Origin: Nitrosopumilus sp.
GTDB lineage: Archaea > Thermoproteota > Nitrososphaeria > Nitrososphaerales > Nitrosopumilaceae
DNA length: 64,000 nt
Assembly: GCA_965205425.1 (NCBI GenBank)
Contig: CBDBGZ010000008.1
Span: 96,001 to 160,000, forward strand
Direction of reading: 5' to 3'
The notes below the pieces were generated by a model, which saw nothing but the letters and a program-made list of their open reading frames with translations, was not told where the DNA came from and did not search any database. Made by a program: the position numbers and the translations under genes. Below are positions 33,223-54,130 of the stretch, one piece after another. Numbering within the stretch: the stretch's first letter is position 1; each line of letters starts with the position of its first letter.

Positions 33223-33687
33223 ATGAAATCTAAAAACTCCAAACGATTGGATTCTATTAAAGCAGCACACCAGTACGAAAGGACCCATTCAAGTACAAGA
33301 ATGGAGGATTATTTAGAAATTATTTCAGAATTGGTGGAACTAAAAGGATATGCAACTACATTAGACATTTCAAGATACATGAATGTAAGTGCACCAAGTG
33401 TCACCAAAATGTTACAGCGACTTGATGAAAACGGATTTTTAGAATACGAAAAGTACCATGGAATCAATCTAACGAATAAGGGAATAAAAATTGCAGAAGG
33501 AATACGACAAAAACATGGGATATTGCTAGAATTTTTTGAAATTTTAGGAGTAGGATATAACACGGCAAATCAAGATACAGAAGGGATTGAACATCATCTA
33601 AATCCAAAAACAATCAAACAATTAAGAAAATTTATCACTTTTCTAAAAGCAAATCCAAAGATTATTGATAATTTTAAAAATCTTTAA
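33223..33687 (+). CDS. mntR: DtxR/MntR-family metal-dependent regulator
   Basis: MEDYLE, PSVTKML, EGIEHH. Confidence 0.9.
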   Translation: MKSKNSKRLDSIKAAHQYERTHSSTRMEDYLEIISELVELKGYATTLDISRYMNVSAPSVTKMLQRLDENGFLEYEKYHGINLTNKGIKIAEGIRQKHGILLEFFEILGVGYNTANQDTEGIEHHLNPKTIKQLRKFITFLKANPKIIDNFKNL

Positions 33688-35494
33688 GATAAATTTTGAT
33701 ATCATTTTGTGAGGACGTAAAATCCATCAGATTCCTTGCAACATCAGAACGTTTTGGTATTTTGATTTGTCCTTTTTTTCCGATTCTAACAGATGCAATA
33801 AACTTCTCATTACCATAGATATCAGCATGCATTGAAGAGAAATCCCTATTGACCGTAAGTAGTAAAGCAGTTTTTGATTCTGAAAAACTAAATGGTAAAT
33901 CACTAGAAGTAAGTGAAACTTCATCAGATGTTTTTTCAACTACATCAATGTGTACTTGGAGGGATTTTTCAATTTCATTAATGTTTGATCCGCCTCGCCC
34001 AATTATAGATGCAATATTTTGTTCATTTACCATTACTTTTACTCTGTTATCAGATAAAATTTCAACTTCAGCGTGAGGATCATAACGACGAAAAGTTTCT
34101 TTGATTTTTTCTTCAGCTAGTTTTTCAATTCCTATTTTATCTACTTTTTTACCAACAGGTACAATGACATTTTCTTCTCCAAATGTGTAAATTTCATGCT
34201 CTAAAACATTATCTTCAAAATTTCTGATTTCAATGACAGGTCTAGCCAAATCAGATTCGGTCATTCCAGTAGGTACTTTTACTTTTAATTCTAAATCATA
34301 GACTTTTTGAATTCCACCATCTTTAACAAAAACAACAGTATCCAAAACATTGGGAATAATTCCCAGTTCTATTTTTCCAATAAAACGTTGAATTGCATCT
34401 AGGGGAGAATTTGCATGTACAACACCAACCATTCCAACACCAGTTAATCGTAAATCAGCAAAAGTTGCAAAATCTTCTCTTCGTCTTACTTCATCAAAAA
34501 TTGTATAATCAGGTCTTACAAGTAATAAAATATCTGCAGTATTGTCAAAACTGCCATCTAGTTTACTATATTGAGTTACTCCAGAATCTACTTGTAAATC
34601 ACGTGGAGATTCAAATGTTTTAACAATTTTCCCTTTATTGTGATAAAAATTTGCAAGACCAGATGCAAGAGTACTTTTTCCAGAGCCAGGAGCACCAGAA
34701 ATTACAATGCCTTCAGCACTGTCAGAAAAACGCTCCATTAATTTTTCAGAGATGGTGTAATCATCAAGAGATAATTTAACGATTGGGTGAACTATAGTAA
34801 TTTCAAAAGATTCAGAGAAAGGAGGATATGTAATTGCTATTCTGTAATCGCCATGCTGAACAACAGATGCTCCAGTTTTAGATATCTCTAACGTACTAGA
34901 ATCAAAAATATTTACTACATCTAAAATTTGAGATGAAATCATTTCCAAATAATCTTTTGAAAGAGTTTCGTCATTAATCTGGGTTAATTGGAATGAACCG
35001 GGTTTACCTTTTTTTGCTAAAGGGTATTGATTCTCTTTAAGATGAATGCTCATAGTTTCAGAGTCAAAAAATTTAAGGAATTCTAAGGATTCATTTTTAA
35101 TTTTAGATTTAAGAAAAACAGTTTCAACGTCTTCAGCTTGAGCAACTAAATGTTGTACATGATCAGAAGTATATAGAATAGCACCATATTGTTTTGCCAT
35201 ATCAACTATCAATGCATCAATTCTCCCACTACTGGCAAGCTTTACATCATCAGAAGTTGGATGATTTCCACTTACAAGGATGTTCAACCCATGACTGCCA
35301 GATAAGGATTTGAGTTTTCTAATTCTCTCAAGACCAATGAACCCTTGTTCTTTTTTCTTGGAAGCTTGTGATTGAAGTTCATCAAAAACCGCTTGAGGGA
35401 TAATGATTTCAAAATTTCGAATACTGCCAGATTCTATCTGAGAAACTAACTGACCATTTATGATGACACTAGTATCTGCAACAATTTTTGACAT
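33674..35494 (-). CDS. PINA ATPase (PIN + ATPase + KH domains)
   Basis: DTS PIN start, GAPGSGKST, ESPRDL, IIGRGG KH motif. Confidence 0.92.
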   Translation of the reverse strand: MSKIVADTSVIINGQLVSQIESGSIRNFEIIIPQAVFDELQSQASKKKEQGFIGLERIRKLKSLSGSHGLNILVSGNHPTSDDVKLASSGRIDALIVDMAKQYGAILYTSDHVQHLVAQAEDVETVFLKSKIKNESLEFLKFFDSETMSIHLKENQYPLAKKGKPGSFQLTQINDETLSKDYLEMISSQILDVVNIFDSSTLEISKTGASVVQHGDYRIAITYPPFSESFEITIVHPIVKLSLDDYTISEKLMERFSDSAEGIVISGAPGSGKSTLASGLANFYHNKGKIVKTFESPRDLQVDSGVTQYSKLDGSFDNTADILLLVRPDYTIFDEVRRREDFATFADLRLTGVGMVGVVHANSPLDAIQRFIGKIELGIIPNVLDTVVFVKDGGIQKVYDLELKVKVPTGMTESDLARPVIEIRNFEDNVLEHEIYTFGEENVIVPVGKKVDKIGIEKLAEEKIKETFRRYDPHAEVEILSDNRVKVMVNEQNIASIIGRGGSNINEIEKSLQVHIDVVEKTSDEVSLTSSDLPFSFSESKTALLLTVNRDFSSMHADIYGNEKFIASVRIGKKGQIKIPKRSDVARNLMDFTSSQNDIKIYLKDF

Positions 35495-35571
35495 TTTTAG
35501 ATCAATTGTTCAATTATTTTATACCCTAAATTACTTTCTTAAATTAGAGTCTTAATTGATTCTAAAACACC

Positions 35572-37005
35572 GTTAAAATCAAATGGTTTTGATATGTATG
35601 AGGAAGCCAAACTCTTTTGAATTATTGCAGGGTCAAATATTATAGTTAAAATCAAATGGTTTTGATATCAGTAGATGGGAAAGTAACTCAAATTACACAT
35701 TCTAGGAAATAATTATTTTTGTTATTTCTAAAGTAATGAATAATTATCTTTACAAAGAAATATTTGAGAATTTCAATTGATATTATTGGTTTGTGATTTT
35801 GTACATTAGTTTCTTCTGAGATAATCAAATTAGCAATTATCCATGCATTGTACAAAATCAATGAATAGTAAAAATACAACAATCTTATGGATTGGTTTGA
35901 ACTGGTGGTTTTTGGTCTGAACCTTCCCACACATGCATAGCCTGTTTCAATCCCCCAACGTTTCTTGTAATCAGTTGGAATGTTTTGTATGTTATATGAT
36001 ATTTCTTTTGGTGAAACGTTTGTTGCAAACACAACATACTGATCAATAATATCTGATTTTTTTCTTGCATTTTTGTTTGGCAGAATAACTAGATTAAATG
36101 ATTCTACATGTCCTGATGATGATTTTATTGTGTATGGCGAGATTGACTTTCTATCTCCATTAACGTATTGTACAATTGCATCTTTGATTCGAGAATTCTT
36201 TTTTGCAGGCATTAGAAATTTTAAATTCCTTTGTTTTATTTCTGAAATTGTTCCAGCTGTGAAAAACTCCCTATCCACTAGCAATAGTTTAATCTTGATT
36301 CCATTATTGATGCCATCAGAGAGTAATTTACGCACAAAATCGGCATTTGATTTGTTGTCATACAAAGGATAACAACCTAATTGAGCCCTGATTCTTTTTT
36401 CAACGCACTGCATGGTGCAGTAACTCTCAAAATGAGTAGTACTGTTTTTTGATTTTGATTTTATTAAAGAATGGTTTGGCAATTTGTCATATCTTGGGAT
36501 TAGATGTTTGTCAATTGCTACAGTAACTGGTTGCTCCAATACTCCCAATTCTTGTAATTTTGATATGGTACTATCCAGTGAACGATGTAATTGAATTTGC
36601 ATTGTTTTTTGTGATATTTTTGATATGATTTTTCTCAACCATGAAACCAGTTGGAGAAGCATTATCTGATTCCATTGCCAGTCTCTTTAATCCAGATTCA
36701 GAATATGAATTTCCCAAACACAATGACATGATAGAATTATGTGCATCTGCATTGTGGAACCGTGAGTTATTTTTACTAGAGCATGGAAACAATAAGATAT
36801 TGTACATTATTTTAGTGATAATCTCAAATGCTTTAGATAGTATCACGCCTTGGTGTGTCATGGTATCAAATGAAGTACAATGCATATTTGATGGAGTGAC
36901 ATACTTTCATCAAGCTTTTTCTATCTGAATAGATTGATTGAATAATTGATAGTTTTTGATCTAAATTGAGTTACTTTCCCATCTACTGGATATGTATGAG
37001 GAAGC
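35572..37005 (+). repeat. 36-bp direct repeat enclosing a 37-bp insert; second copy split by ISH3
   Basis: GTTAAAATCAAATGGTTTTGATATGTATGAGGAAGC at 35572-35607 and at 35645-35668 plus 36994-37005. Confidence 0.85.
35669..36988 (-). mobile_element. ISH3-family IS, full-length copy 2 with 5-bp TSD
   Basis: TIR CAGTAGATGGGAAAGTAACTCAA; TSD GATAT; transposase in two frames (36571..36885, 35688..36662). Confidence 0.95.
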
Positions 37006-37241
37006 ACCATGATCTAAACATTGTTGAATTACTTTTTGATCATCACTTGCAGTAATTAGAATTATTTTTGCTTTAGGATCATACTTCATTACTTCTTGCA
37101 CAACTGTAAACCCATCTTTTTTTGACATTGCTAAATCAAGTAATAGGATTTGAGGATTATGTTTTTGATAGAAATCAACTGCTTCAGCACCATCAATTGC
37201 TTCGGCTACTACCTCATGTTCTCCAATTGATAAAATATCTT

Positions 37242-38150
37242 GGTGATTGTAAACCTATTACCACCAACTATTTTTGAGTAATTATTGGAAAAAACAATCA
37301 ACATAATTGAGTTATCTAAAATAATTCACAACAAATCAACTGCATTGGAATTTCTCTGCAACCAATTCAAAAAGAAAAACACAATTCATTGTTCATCATG
37401 TAACTCTGAGAATTACTATATTATTTCAAGAGGGAAACTAAGATGCAAAGATTGCAAGACAGATTATAGACCGTTTGCTGGAACATGGTTTGATATCATC
37501 AACATTAATTTTACAAAATGGTTGGCCCTAGTCAAACTATTTGATATTGGGATTAGTGCAAGACGTGCAGCTAGAGAAGCAGATGTCAGTTATCCAACTT
37601 GCACTAAATGCTTTTGATTGCATCAGATATGCCATACTGTATCATCTGGCAGAATCAGACAAGAAACTAAAAGGGAAAATTGAGGCTGACGAGGCGACTA
37701 TTTTGGAGGAAAAAGAAAGGGAAATCGTGGCAGAGGTGCCAAGAACAAGACCATCGTATTTGGCATACTGGAAAGAAAGGGAAAAGTTCACGTTGAGATT
37801 GTAAACAATGTCAAGGCAAAGACATTGCTTGCAGGAACAATCAAGAAAGTAAAGAAAGGAAGCATTGTGTATACGGACAAGAGGAGAGGATATGATTCGC
37901 TAGTTTTCAACGGCTACAAACATCTCTCAATAGGCCACAGCAAGATGTTTGGCAAAGGTGATGTGTACATCAATGGGATTGAAGGGTTTTGGAGTTTTGC
38001 AAAAGAGAACATGGCAAAGCATCACGGAGTAAGTCCAGATAAATTCTTGTTATACATCAAAGAGATGGAGTGGAGATACAATAACAGGAATTCTGATCTA
38101 TTTGAATTGTTGTTGAAATACATGTTAGGGGTAGAATATACCTAATCACC
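37242..38150 (+). mobile_element. IS1595-family IS, frameshifted transposase
   Basis: Zn ribbon, EADE, RGRG, YTD, HSK, NGIEGFWS, E.EWRYN; ends GGTGATT / AATCACC. Confidence 0.88.
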
Positions 38151-38299
38151 AAGATCTATTCATGTGCGGACCCAGTTAGATTAGAACTTTAAGAGACATA
38201 ATTTTGTGAAAAAATTACAAAAAACAGGAAAAAATCAAAAGAAAAAATCATGAAAGAGATAGAAAATGCACAGGAACCATAAAGCCAACTTTAGTGTAG

Positions 38300-41013: not shown

Positions 41014-41991
41014 TTAGAATCCTTTTGGTAGTGTTCCTCTAGATTCTTTTGGCTTTTCTTCTGCTGGAGAAGGAGCTTCAAATCCTTTGGGTAAAGTACC
41101 TCTACTTGCTGAAGCTCGAGCTTTTGCTTCTTTTTCAAGTAATTCATCAAATGCTTTTTCTTCATCTATTCTTTGTTGATCTAGTCTTTGCAAGTAATCA
41201 GCTTCATAATCTGCCAATTTTTCTCCTCTAGATTTTCCATCATCAGCAACATATGTTGATTGTTGTGGTGGCGGAGCTTGCTGTGTTTGCTCCATACCTT
41301 TTGGAAGTTTACCTTTTGCAGGTTTTGGTGGTTCTGGTGGTTCTGGTGGAGGCGTTTGTGTTTGAGTTTGTGCCTTAACACCTTCAACTGACATGTTAAT
41401 TCCACTAAAACTTCCAAATGTTTTATCAGGTGGATGGTATGCAAGTCTTGCTCTTGTTGCAAAGTATTGGTTTGATGCTGCAGTGTAACCAGTTACTGTT
41501 GCTTTTTGATCATTCCAATTTTTGGTTGGAACTTTACCTACAGGAGCAGTTAGTCTAACAAAGTATCTGTTAGGAGCTGGAGAATAACCTGTGACTTTGG
41601 CTCTATAATCATGGAATGATGTCATAGGAGCAGTCATGTATGCATTCTCTAATGCGTCTTGAACAGTTGCAGGAGGTTGTGTTGTTGTTTCAGCTGGTTT
41701 TGGTGCCTCTACAGGTTTTTCTTCCATTCCTTTAGGTAGTGTACCTTTTGGTTTGGTAGTTGCGGCAGGTCTCTCAGCAGGTTTTGCTGGAGCTGGTTTT
41801 GTATCCGTTCCTTTAGGTAGTGTACCTTTTAGTTTGGTCTCAGCTGGTTTGACCTCAGCAGGTTTAGTTTCTGCGGGTTTTGGTGCTGGTTTGGCTTCAA
41901 GCTGTGATGATAATTTTGTTAATTTTGCCTCTAGTTCTGCGATTTTAGACTCTAGATCTTTTTTTGTACTTGCTTTGCTTTTTGCGGCCAT
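41014..41991 (-). CDS. Pro/Lys-rich low-complexity protein with GTLPKG repeats (paralog A)
   Basis: Repeated GTLPKG and KPAE; N-terminal coiled coil. Confidence 0.85.
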   Translation of the reverse strand: MAAKSKASTKKDLESKIAELEAKLTKLSSQLEAKPAPKPAETKPAEVKPAETKLKGTLPKGTDTKPAPAKPAERPAATTKPKGTLPKGMEEKPVEAPKPAETTTQPPATVQDALENAYMTAPMTSFHDYRAKVTGYSPAPNRYFVRLTAPVGKVPTKNWNDQKATVTGYTAASNQYFATRARLAYHPPDKTFGSFSGINMSVEGVKAQTQTQTPPPEPPEPPKPAKGKLPKGMEQTQQAPPPQQSTYVADDGKSRGEKLADYEADYLQRLDQQRIDEEKAFDELLEKEAKARASASRGTLPKGFEAPSPAEEKPKESRGTLPKGF

Positions 41992-42102
41992 TCCTTACAG
42001 TAAATATTACATTGTTTATTTACATTTTGATCATCTAAAATTTTTATTCAAAATTATTAGTAAAAACAAACAAAAGTTTGTAAAAATTTCATTAGTTTGT
42101 GA

Positions 42103-42294
42103 TTAATCAGGTTCCCAAAATTGCATAACATACATGCAATTATTACATCGCCATAATCTAACATGAATTCCATTGTTAGTATCTGCAGCATAACTCCCAT
42201 CATCCATTTTCATTACTGTTGGAAGATAACTTAATTCAGTATTTTCAAGCCATTCATTTTGTTGACAGTTAGGGCATTTACTTTTTGGAGCCAT
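42103..42294 (-). CDS. Small Zn-ribbon protein
   Basis: CPNC...CNNC. Confidence 0.75.
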   Translation of the reverse strand: MAPKSKCPNCQQNEWLENTELSYLPTVMKMDDGSYAADTNNGIHVRLWRCNNCMYVMQFWEPD

Positions 42295-42362
42295 GTATAG
42301 TATAATGTATGATCAAAGAAGAACATTACTATTAAAAATAGAAAATAGAAGATGTTTTTGAA

Positions 42363-43058
42363 TTAGAAACCTTTTGGTAGTGTGCCTCTTTTAGGCTTTG
42401 GTGGTTCTGGAGTTGGTGTTTGTTGTGCTGGTGCATCAACGCCTTCAACTGACATGTTAATTCCACTAAAACTTCCAAATGTTTTATCAACAGGATGATA
42501 GGCCATTCTTGCTCTTGTTGCAAAGTATTGGTTTGATGCTGCAGTGTAACCAGTTACTGTTGCTTTTTGATCATTCCAATTTTTGGTTGGAACTTTACCT
42601 ACAGGAGCAGTTAGTCTAACAAAGTATCTGTTAGGAGCTGGAGAATAACCTGTGACTTTGGCTCTATAATCATGGAATGATGTCATAGGAGCAGTCATGT
42701 ATGCATTCTCTAATGCGTCTTGAACAGTTGTTGGAGCTGGAAGGTCGGTTTTTGTTTCAGCTGGTTTTGGAACCTCTGCAGGTTTTTCTTCAAATCCTTT
42801 AGGTAGTGTACCTTTTGGTTTGGTAGTTGCTGCAGGTCTCTCAGCAGGTTTTGCTGGAGCTGGTTTTGTATCCGTTCCTTTAGGTAGTGTACCTTTTAGT
42901 TTGGTCTCAGCTGGTTTGACCTCAGCAGGTTTAGTTTCTGCTGGCTTTACTTCAGCTGGTTTTGATTCTAGCTGAGTAGAAAGTTTGTTTAGCTTTGCTT
43001 CTAATTCTGCAATCTTGTTTTCAAGATCTGCTTTTGTTTGCTTTTTAGCAGCTGCCAT
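42363..43058 (-). CDS. Pro/Lys-rich protein with GTLPKG repeats (paralog B)
   Basis: Shares near-identical nucleotide blocks with 41014..41991. Confidence 0.85.
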   Translation of the reverse strand: MAAAKKQTKADLENKIAELEAKLNKLSTQLESKPAEVKPAETKPAEVKPAETKLKGTLPKGTDTKPAPAKPAERPAATTKPKGTLPKGFEEKPAEVPKPAETKTDLPAPTTVQDALENAYMTAPMTSFHDYRAKVTGYSPAPNRYFVRLTAPVGKVPTKNWNDQKATVTGYTAASNQYFATRARMAYHPVDKTFGSFSGINMSVEGVDAPAQQTPTPEPPKPKRGTLPKGF

Positions 43059-43154
43059 ATTTTGGATGGTCAATTCGGGGTTTATGTACATTTGGGTTGA
43101 TTACGCCAACTAATTTTGATCAAGTTTTATATGCTAAATTACATAATTAATGGC

Positions 43155-53900: not shown

Positions 53901-54130
53901 TACTTGAAACTACTTGAAACTACTTGAAACTACTTGAAACTACTTGAAACTACTTGAAACTACTTGAAACTACTTGAAACTACTTGAAACTACTTGAAAC
54001 TACTTGAAACTACTTGAAACTACTTGAAACTACTTGAAACTACTTGAAACTACTTGAAACTACTTGAAACTACTTGAAACTACTTGAAACTACTTGAAAC
54101 TACTTGAAACTACTTGAAACTACTTGAAAC
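53901..54130 (+). repeat. Tandem decamer array (TACTTGAAAC)x23
   Basis: Directly visible perfect units. Confidence 0.98.

What the first reader, a model, noticed from the sequence alone, without database searches (positions are those of the whole stretch)
35572..37005. Repeat-spacer-repeat scar in a protein gene: possible off-target CRISPR spacer acquisition
Seen: after removing ISH3 and one GATAT, the response-regulator gene has an exact 36-bp duplication of its own coding sequence, separated by 37 unrelated bp (35608-35644, CAAACTCTTTTGAATTATTGCAGGGTCAAATATTATA). The native C-terminus survives beyond it. ISH3 hit only one copy, so it came later. Established: Cas1-Cas2 integration duplicates a repeat-length target around a spacer-length insert, and many archaeal repeats start GTT..AAT and end GAAA(C/G). 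The duplicated segment starts GTTAAAATC and ends GGAAGC. Inference: a natural ectopic integration (the birth of a one-spacer array) that knocked out a gene. No cas gene is in this window.
Basis: partly seen in the sequence, partly recalled or inferred. Interest (0 to 1): 0.8.

Follow-up and report, generated by a model that had tools for sequence, protein, structure and literature searches.

The report
Misplaced CRISPR spacer, no CRISPR left
A spacer-sized piece of DNA sits between two exact 36-base copies of a signalling gene's own sequence, one of six such scars in an archaeon whose assembled genome has no CRISPR genes, most likely the footprints of a CRISPR memory-writing enzyme that inserted DNA at the wrong places before it was lost.

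Summary
The scar is real: an exact 36-bp duplication around a 37-bp insert, with an IS later inserted in one copy. A relative has one copy, and contigs of public runs carry the junctions. This genome holds five more such scars (36-38-bp duplication, 32-34-bp insert). Three lie in IS copies that have empty sisters, and one insert is an exact copy of a distant host gene. Across this genome and 2.4 Mb sampled from relatives, 20 of 24 clean two-copy repeats have a CRISPR-unit period of 62-76 bp. A relative with 30-bp arrays has two ~30-bp scars that resemble its own repeat. Best reading: off-target Cas1-Cas2 integration (0.88). Against it: this assembly has no cas1, cas2 or array, although 59 of 150 genus genomes have Cas1; this insert's source was not found; likeness to repeats is weak. 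The gene has two other lesions, so 'knocked out by the spacer' is unproven. The process is known from the laboratory, and the scan has reported such scars on other DNA (44 notes, at least 33 genomes). New here: scars in a genome with no CRISPR system.

The parts
35539..35571 (-). Native last 10 codons and stop of the receiver-domain gene, cut off by the insertion
   Evidence: translation; the G003 orthologue ends the same way
35572..35607 (.). Copy 1 of the 36-bp target duplication (intact)
35608..35644 (.). 37-bp spacer-sized insert of unknown source
   Evidence: no source found
35645..35668 (.). Copy 2 of the duplication, first 24 bp (ends in the IS target GATAT)
35669..36988 (-). 1320-bp IS with 27-bp terminal inverted repeats and a DDE_Tnp_1 transposase (ORF 35688-36662); ISH3-like (name recalled); inserted after the duplication
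36989..36993 (.). Second GATAT, the 5-bp target duplication of the IS
36994..37005 (.). Copy 2 of the duplication, last 12 bp
37006..37241 (-). Body of the single-domain response-regulator pseudogene (first 17-18 codons missing)
37242..38152 (+). IS1595-family element (frameshifted transposase) at the 5' end of the gene; a separate lesion

Best explanation
A Cas1-Cas2 integrase with a 36/37-bp ruler (type I-B or I-G, both common in this genus) joined a 37-bp prespacer to the two strands of the gene 36 bp apart, and gap filling duplicated the target, giving repeat-spacer-repeat outside any array. This happened at least six times in this lineage, at sites chosen mainly by spacing and G/C ends, with little sequence match. 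An IS later hit one copy. The CRISPR-Cas locus is now missing: lost (about 0.55), outside the assembly or bin (about 0.3), or never resident and supplied by a mobile element (about 0.15); these three odds are judgement. Shown: geometry, derived state, recurrence, size match to genus arrays, self-derived inserts, order insert-then-IS. Inferred: the enzyme, its subtype, its loss.
For: Six scars in G000, duplication/insert 37/32, 37/34, 36/34, 38/34 (1 mismatch), 36/37, 37/33. Three lie in an rve-integrase IS that has 15-19 uninterrupted sister copies. One insert is an exact 34/34 copy of part of a VWA gene on another contig. Genus arrays have 36/37-bp repeats with spacers mostly 33-40 bp, types I-B and I-G; Cas1 is in 59 of 150 genus genomes, a count that includes casposase-sized hits. 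20 of 24 clean two-copy repeats (28-45 bp, at most 1 mismatch, periods 40-160) have period 62-76, p = 5e-15 (events cluster, so this overstates). G144, whose only Cas1 goes with a 30-bp repeat, has scars of 30/35 and 32/32 that match its repeat at 19/30 and 18/30 (p = 0.0003, 0.003). Of 8 inserts of other genomes searched in their own genomes, 2 have exact and 1 a near source. 11 of 12 duplication ends in G000 are G or C (p = 1e-4 against local GC), as with P. furiosus Cas1-Cas2 off-target sites and S. solfataricus Cas1 (PMC6698737; PMC4574026). cas1 of G142 is itself split by a 38/34 scar.
Against: No cas1, cas2, other cas homologue, array or lone repeat in G000, which is 99.55% complete in 9 contigs. 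The source of this insert was not found in G000, 150 genus genomes (3 mismatches), or viral, metagenome and genome collections (exact). 5 of 6 G000 inserts and 5 of 8 tested elsewhere have no source. PAM is inconclusive: a TTN flank fits 2 of 3 exact sources on one of the two strands, and not the third. Most 36/37-bp targets do not resemble the native repeat: 2 of 15 in I-B36/37 and I-G genomes reach p < 0.05, and G000 combined p = 0.19. G/C ends do not carry over to the 23 candidates of other genomes (25 of 46 ends). G144 also has 38/35 and 37/36 scars that its 30-bp system should not make. One scar (33/38) was found in 400 kb sampled from Cas1-less genomes.
Confidence: 0.88

Rival explanations
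1. An unknown, CRISPR-independent integrase or repair process adds about 70 bp (a target duplication plus a captured fragment), and the match to CRISPR sizes is coincidental.
For: No cas genes in G000; 37/38-bp scars in a genome with only a 30-bp system; weak repeat likeness of 36/37-bp targets; no consistent PAM.
Against: The only ~30-bp scars seen lie in a genome with 30-bp arrays and match its repeat. Periods vary from 64 to 75 and are often out of frame. Insert lengths match native spacer ranges. The Cas1-less sample has 1 scar per 400 kb, against 10 per 800 kb in I-B36/37 and I-G samples.
Confidence: 0.06
2. Residue of a transposon or casposon with a long target duplication, after internal deletion or imprecise excision.
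For: The genome is IS-rich (16% multi-copy), and casposase-sized Cas1 proteins occur in the genus.
Against: The six inserts are unrelated to each other and none matches multi-copy DNA. One is an internal piece of a single-copy gene. Casposase duplications are 14-15 bp (PMC7786333). No element bounded by 30-42-bp direct repeats was recognised in G000.
Confidence: 0.02
3. Replication slippage or template switching made a 73-bp tandem duplication or a locally templated insertion.
For: On the coding strand the insert reads in frame with the downstream copy as a peptide loosely like the native helix.
Against: The 36-bp copies are identical while the insert has no near match locally or genome-wide. 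Slippage gives no fixed size, yet sizes peak sharply.
Confidence: 0.02
4. Assembly or library artefact.
For: Metagenome-type assembly with 5.2% contamination.
Against: The junctions stand in contigs of runs from more than one sample, and a later IS with its own target duplication sits inside one copy (5).
Confidence: 0.01

Closest known systems
Non-canonical (off-target) spacer integration and 'neo-CRISPR' arrays in E. coli type I-E (Nivala, Shipman and Church 2018; paper not held, seen only through passages of 10.1101/148544, PMC7054753 and PMC6698737)
   Same: A spacer-length insert between two copies of a repeat-length host target, outside any array.
   Different: There the adaptation proteins were artificially up-regulated, and natural cases were described as circumstantial in two other species. 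Here the scars are natural and fixed, in an archaeon, with a 36/37-bp ruler and little repeat likeness, and the genome has no cas genes.
In vitro full-site off-target integration by Pyrococcus furiosus Cas1-Cas2 (PMC6698737; passages read)
   Same: Paired insertion sites one repeat length apart with G or C at the ends, no leader needed; 11 of 12 ends in G000 are G/C.
   Different: 30-bp ruler, plasmid targets in vitro, and targets that share several repeat bases; the 36/37-bp targets here mostly do not.
Casposons and casposases (PMC7786333; passages read)
   Same: Cas1-family integrase, target duplication, can integrate short duplexes, studied in Nitrosopumilus.
   Different: The duplication is 14-15 bp and the substrates carry terminal inverted repeats; here it is 36-38 bp with unrelated inserts, and G000 has no Cas1 homologue.
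Earlier unpublished notes of this scan on genome-wide ectopic spacers in ammonia-oxidising archaea (e1-6524404, e1-6519098, e1-6524293, e1-6527508, e1-6527598, e1-6527623)
   Same: 36-37-bp duplications around 34-38-bp inserts, genome-wide, partly self-derived, often in IS elements.
   Different: As listed, those notes speak of the genome's own CRISPR enzymes or arrays and of dozens of scars; this genome has six scars and no CRISPR-Cas.

Membership tests
Off-target Cas1-Cas2 integration scar | Exact duplication of host target DNA of repeat length flanking the insert | tested here: met
   36 bp exact; genus repeats are 36/37 bp
Off-target Cas1-Cas2 integration scar | Insert of native spacer length, unrelated to the target | tested here: met
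   37 bp; genus spacers mostly 33-40
Off-target Cas1-Cas2 integration scar | Derived state (empty site in relatives or sister copies) | tested here: met
   G003 single copy (12, 68); 15-19 empty IS sisters for three other scars
Off-target Cas1-Cas2 integration scar | Cas1-Cas2 and a native array in the same genome | tested here: not met
   0 hits; Cas1 in 59 of 150 genus genomes; the assembly has gaps, and 11 of 18 contig ends match several places
Off-target Cas1-Cas2 integration scar | Insert has a protospacer elsewhere | tested here: inconclusive
   Not found for this insert; exact for 1 of 6 G000 scars and 2 of 8 tested elsewhere, near for 1
Off-target Cas1-Cas2 integration scar | Consistent PAM next to protospacers | tested here: inconclusive
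   3 exact sources, orientation unknown; TTN (recalled for I-G) fits 2, not the third; 732 native spacers gave no protospacer from which to derive a PAM
Off-target Cas1-Cas2 integration scar | Target resembles the leader-repeat junction or the repeat | tested here: inconclusive
   This site p = 0.0025-0.08; the other five G000 sites do not reach p < 0.05 in any test; met for the two ~30-bp scars of G144 (68)
Off-target Cas1-Cas2 integration scar | Duplication length follows the genome's native repeat length | tested here: inconclusive
   ~30-bp scars only in the 30-bp genome G144 (2 cases), but it also has 37/38-bp ones; none in 420 kb of G159 and G017
Functional CRISPR array (neo-array) | Transcribed, processed repeat with cas genes; further spacers added | tested here: not met
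   Single unit, one copy broken by an IS, no cas genes; transcription not tested
Casposon footprint | 14-15-bp target duplication, TIR-bearing insert, casposase | tested here: not met
   36-bp duplication, unrelated inserts, no Cas1 homologue
ISH3 family (the 1320-bp element) | DDE transposase, terminal inverted repeats, 4-5-bp target duplication (features recalled) | tested here: inconclusive
   PF01609, 27-bp inverted repeats and a 5-bp duplication are present; no IS database was searched for the family name

The most novel reading that the evidence does not exclude
The scars were written with no resident array to aim at: a Cas1-Cas2 module that arrived on a mobile element, or stayed on after array loss, acted as a genome-wide mutator. 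It struck one IS481-like family far beyond its share (3 of 6 scars in roughly 1% of the genome), and in a relative it disabled its own cas1. Such scars would be a fossil record from which lost CRISPR systems and their ruler lengths can be read in genomes that no longer have them.
Probability: 0.2. Interest if true: 0.8.

Novelty: new variant of a known kind. Interest (0 to 1): 0.55.

Why it matters
Off-target spacer integration is known mainly from over-expression and test-tube work, and how often it happens in nature was described as unclear (10.1101/148544). Fixed scars in several genomes of one archaeal genus show that it is a recurrent natural mutagen that breaks genes, transposases and even cas1. 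That gives a measurable cost of CRISPR adaptation and a route to its loss. A genome with scars but no cas genes suggests that past CRISPR-Cas systems can be detected and sized after they are gone. The single scar in the finding is functionally dead, and the scan has already reported the general phenomenon many times, which limits what this instance adds.

Tried and rejected
Source of the 37-bp insert: none in G000 (5); 0 of 150 genus genomes at 3 mismatches; 0 exact in viral (24-mer), metagenome and genome collections (22-mer, 71, 72). An 18-mer gave 9 viral hits that reach only 21-25 of 37 over the full insert and are chance. Parts of four other G000 inserts gave 0 viral hits and one metagenome hit of 24/33, rejected. 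Exact-match scans miss sources that differ by one base. Cas remnants: ORFs of 40 Cas1-centred loci searched against G000 hit IS and housekeeping genes and, weakly, non-Cas helicase-like ORFs, but no cas1, cas2, cas4, cas5, cas6, cas7 or cas8; nine native repeats have no match better than 8 mismatches. Further IS-split scars in G000: none besides this one; longer-range 31-41-bp repeats were gene duplications or IS ends. C4:98189 (39/16) and C4:166298 (33/43, 3 mismatches) were not counted. A multi-copy element end shares about 17 of the first 18 bases with the target; taken as chance and not followed up. The G/C-end rule was rejected as general. Nivala 2018 could not be read; PMC11394691 passages were not useful. 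Six paper searches listed no report of natural genome-wide scars in these archaea; most subscription papers are not held. The sample of 30-bp-repeat genomes stayed at 1.2 Mb, so the ruler test rests on two events.

Full report
Observation. Window 35572-35607 recurs as 35645-35668 plus 36994-37005 once a 1320-bp IS and one of its 5-bp GATAT duplications are set aside, and the 36-bp match cannot be extended. The 37 bp between the copies have no near match in the 2.2-Mb genome. The target encodes the KPF motif of a receiver domain. The insertion alone would replace the last 10 residues by three and a stop. G003 has the single-copy state. Contigs of public runs carry the junctions: X16 without differences, X18 (another sample) with one, and X17 (another study) the right IS junction. 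The IS sits in one copy only, so it came second. The gene also lacks its first 17-18 codons at an IS1595-family element; that lesion cannot be ordered against the insert. The organism looks like a Nitrosopumilus-type ammonia-oxidising archaeon; this rests on recalled features and on no call.

It is one of a set. A genome-wide scan for two-copy repeats found five more units: C4:117180 (37/32), C7:83610 (37/34), C8:25035 (36/34), C8:42829 (38/34, one mismatch) and C9:109909 (37/33). Chance extension by a base or two makes all of them compatible with a 36- or 37-bp duplication. Three lie at different positions in copies of one rve-integrase IS (IS481-like, name recalled) that has 15-19 uninterrupted sisters, which shows that they are derived. 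The six inserts are unrelated to each other. One is an exact 34-bp copy of an internal part of a VWA-domain gene on C9; the other five have no source found. 11 of the 12 duplication ends are G or C (p = 1e-4 against local GC).

No CRISPR-Cas in this assembly. Cas1 and Cas2 models find nothing, although both ring in the control genomes. ORFs around 40 Cas1 loci of relatives find no cas homologue, there is no array, and native repeats have no close match. The assembly is 99.55% complete but in 9 contigs, 11 of whose 18 ends match several places, so a locus in a gap or on an unbinned replicon is not excluded. In the genus, 59 of 150 genomes have a Cas1-family hit (this includes casposase-sized proteins). 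Arrays beside them have 36/37-bp repeats (type I-B by Cas5h and Csh2, below the curated cut-offs; type I-G by Cas4g/Cas1g and Csb2) or 30-bp repeats, with spacers mostly 33-40 bp. No close relative is held (best 85% identity).

Relatives. I sampled 120 stretches of 20 kb (2.4 Mb) from 18 genomes. With G000, 24 two-copy repeats passed the filter (28-45 bp, at most one mismatch, unlike flanks, period 40-160), and 20 have a period of 62-76 bp, against 15 of 121 lags (p = 5e-15). Events cluster within stretches, so the p-value is overstated. By class: G000 5 (the IS-split one not counted), I-B36/37 genomes 7 in 0.4 Mb, I-G genomes 3 in 0.4 Mb, 30-bp genomes 4 in 1.2 Mb (all in G144), Cas1-less genomes 1 in 0.4 Mb. 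The two shortest periods are in G144, and their targets match its 30-bp repeat at 18/30 and 19/30 (p = 0.003, 0.0003); both have empty homologues. G144 also has 38/35 and 37/36 scars, which its present system should not make, so it too may carry marks of a system that is gone. Of 8 inserts searched in their own genomes, both from G153 have exact sources, one from G148 has near copies (2 and 3 mismatches) in integrase genes, and 5 have none. In G142 a 38/34 scar splits cas1, and both halves hit PF01867.

Mechanism. Cas1-Cas2 joins the two 3' ends of a prespacer to opposite strands one repeat length apart, and repair duplicates the target (established knowledge). P. furiosus Cas1-Cas2 does this at non-CRISPR sites with G or C ends 30 bp apart, without a leader (PMC6698737, passages). 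S. solfataricus Cas1 prefers G, then C, at the acceptor base (PMC4574026, abstract and section 8). This fits size, recurrence, unrelated inserts, self-sources and G/C ends in G000. It does not explain why 36/37-bp targets hardly resemble repeats (2 of 15 below p = 0.05 in relatives; G000 combined p = 0.19), why no PAM emerges, or why three of six scars fall in one IS family of roughly 18 kb (my rough sum). G/C ends are not general outside G000 (25 of 46). Casposases leave 14-15-bp duplications (PMC7786333, passages), no long-duplication IS was recognised, and slippage gives no fixed size.

What is known. Nivala, Shipman and Church 2018 described off-target 'neo-CRISPR' units in E. coli with up-regulated Cas1-Cas2. 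I could not read it and rely on passages of 10.1101/148544 and PMC7054753, the first of which calls the natural evidence circumstantial. Six searches listed no paper on natural genome-wide scars in these archaea; no supplements were read. The scan itself holds 44 notes in at least 33 genomes with these words, several from ammonia-oxidising archaea. They are unchecked, were read after my own tests, and lower the novelty of the general result. A word search for scars with lost cas1 returned none.

Verdict. A real scar that works like off-target Cas1-Cas2 integration (0.88). Membership is not fully met, because the enzyme is absent from the assembly and neither protospacer nor PAM was found for this insert. 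It is not a functional array, and it is not shown to be the lesion that killed the gene. New variant of a known kind; interest 0.55.

Noticed in passing
L069:12135-12244 (G142 cas1): A 38-bp duplication with a 34-bp insert splits this genome's cas1, next to a short, decayed array: the integrase appears to have disabled its own gene.
   Followed up: partly
G000 C7:83610, C8:25035, C9:109909 (L042, L043, L045): Three of six scars fall in one IS481-like family of about 1% of the genome; unexplained.
   Followed up: partly
L185:4824-10118 (G144); L119:6815-16423 (G154); L151; L121; L171: Scars cluster, two to four within about 10 kb, and G144's cluster mixes 30-bp and 37/38-bp duplications.
   Followed up: partly
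L077:18271-18366 (G144): A ~30-bp scar lies between a TFS/RpoM-like gene and the start of a PCNA-like gene (names recalled); G000 has the empty site.
   Followed up: partly
window 41014-43067 and L069: G142's decayed CRISPR locus lies between two tandem paralogues that are adjacent in G000, about 5 kb from this scar; no cas remnant was found there in G000.
   Followed up: partly
window 37242-38152: IS1595-family element with a frameshifted transposase and no clean target duplication; the 5' end of the response-regulator gene is missing beside it, which suggests an adjacent deletion.
   Followed up: partly
G000 C4:98189 (L048): Exact 39-bp duplication around a 16-bp insert near the end of a gene and next to an IS end; possibly a scar with a shortened insert.
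   Followed up: no
G000 C8:149901 (window about 53901-54130): Perfect tandem array of a 10-bp unit, about 23 copies.
   Followed up: no
window 33674-35668, run X18: A second strain, about 7% divergent and more abundant than G000's, is present; its state at the scar was not shown.
   Followed up: no
G000 C9:737965, C4:93208, C5:118772, C8:122909 and others: The end of a multi-copy element shares about 17 of the first 18 bases with the duplicated target; taken as chance.
   Followed up: no
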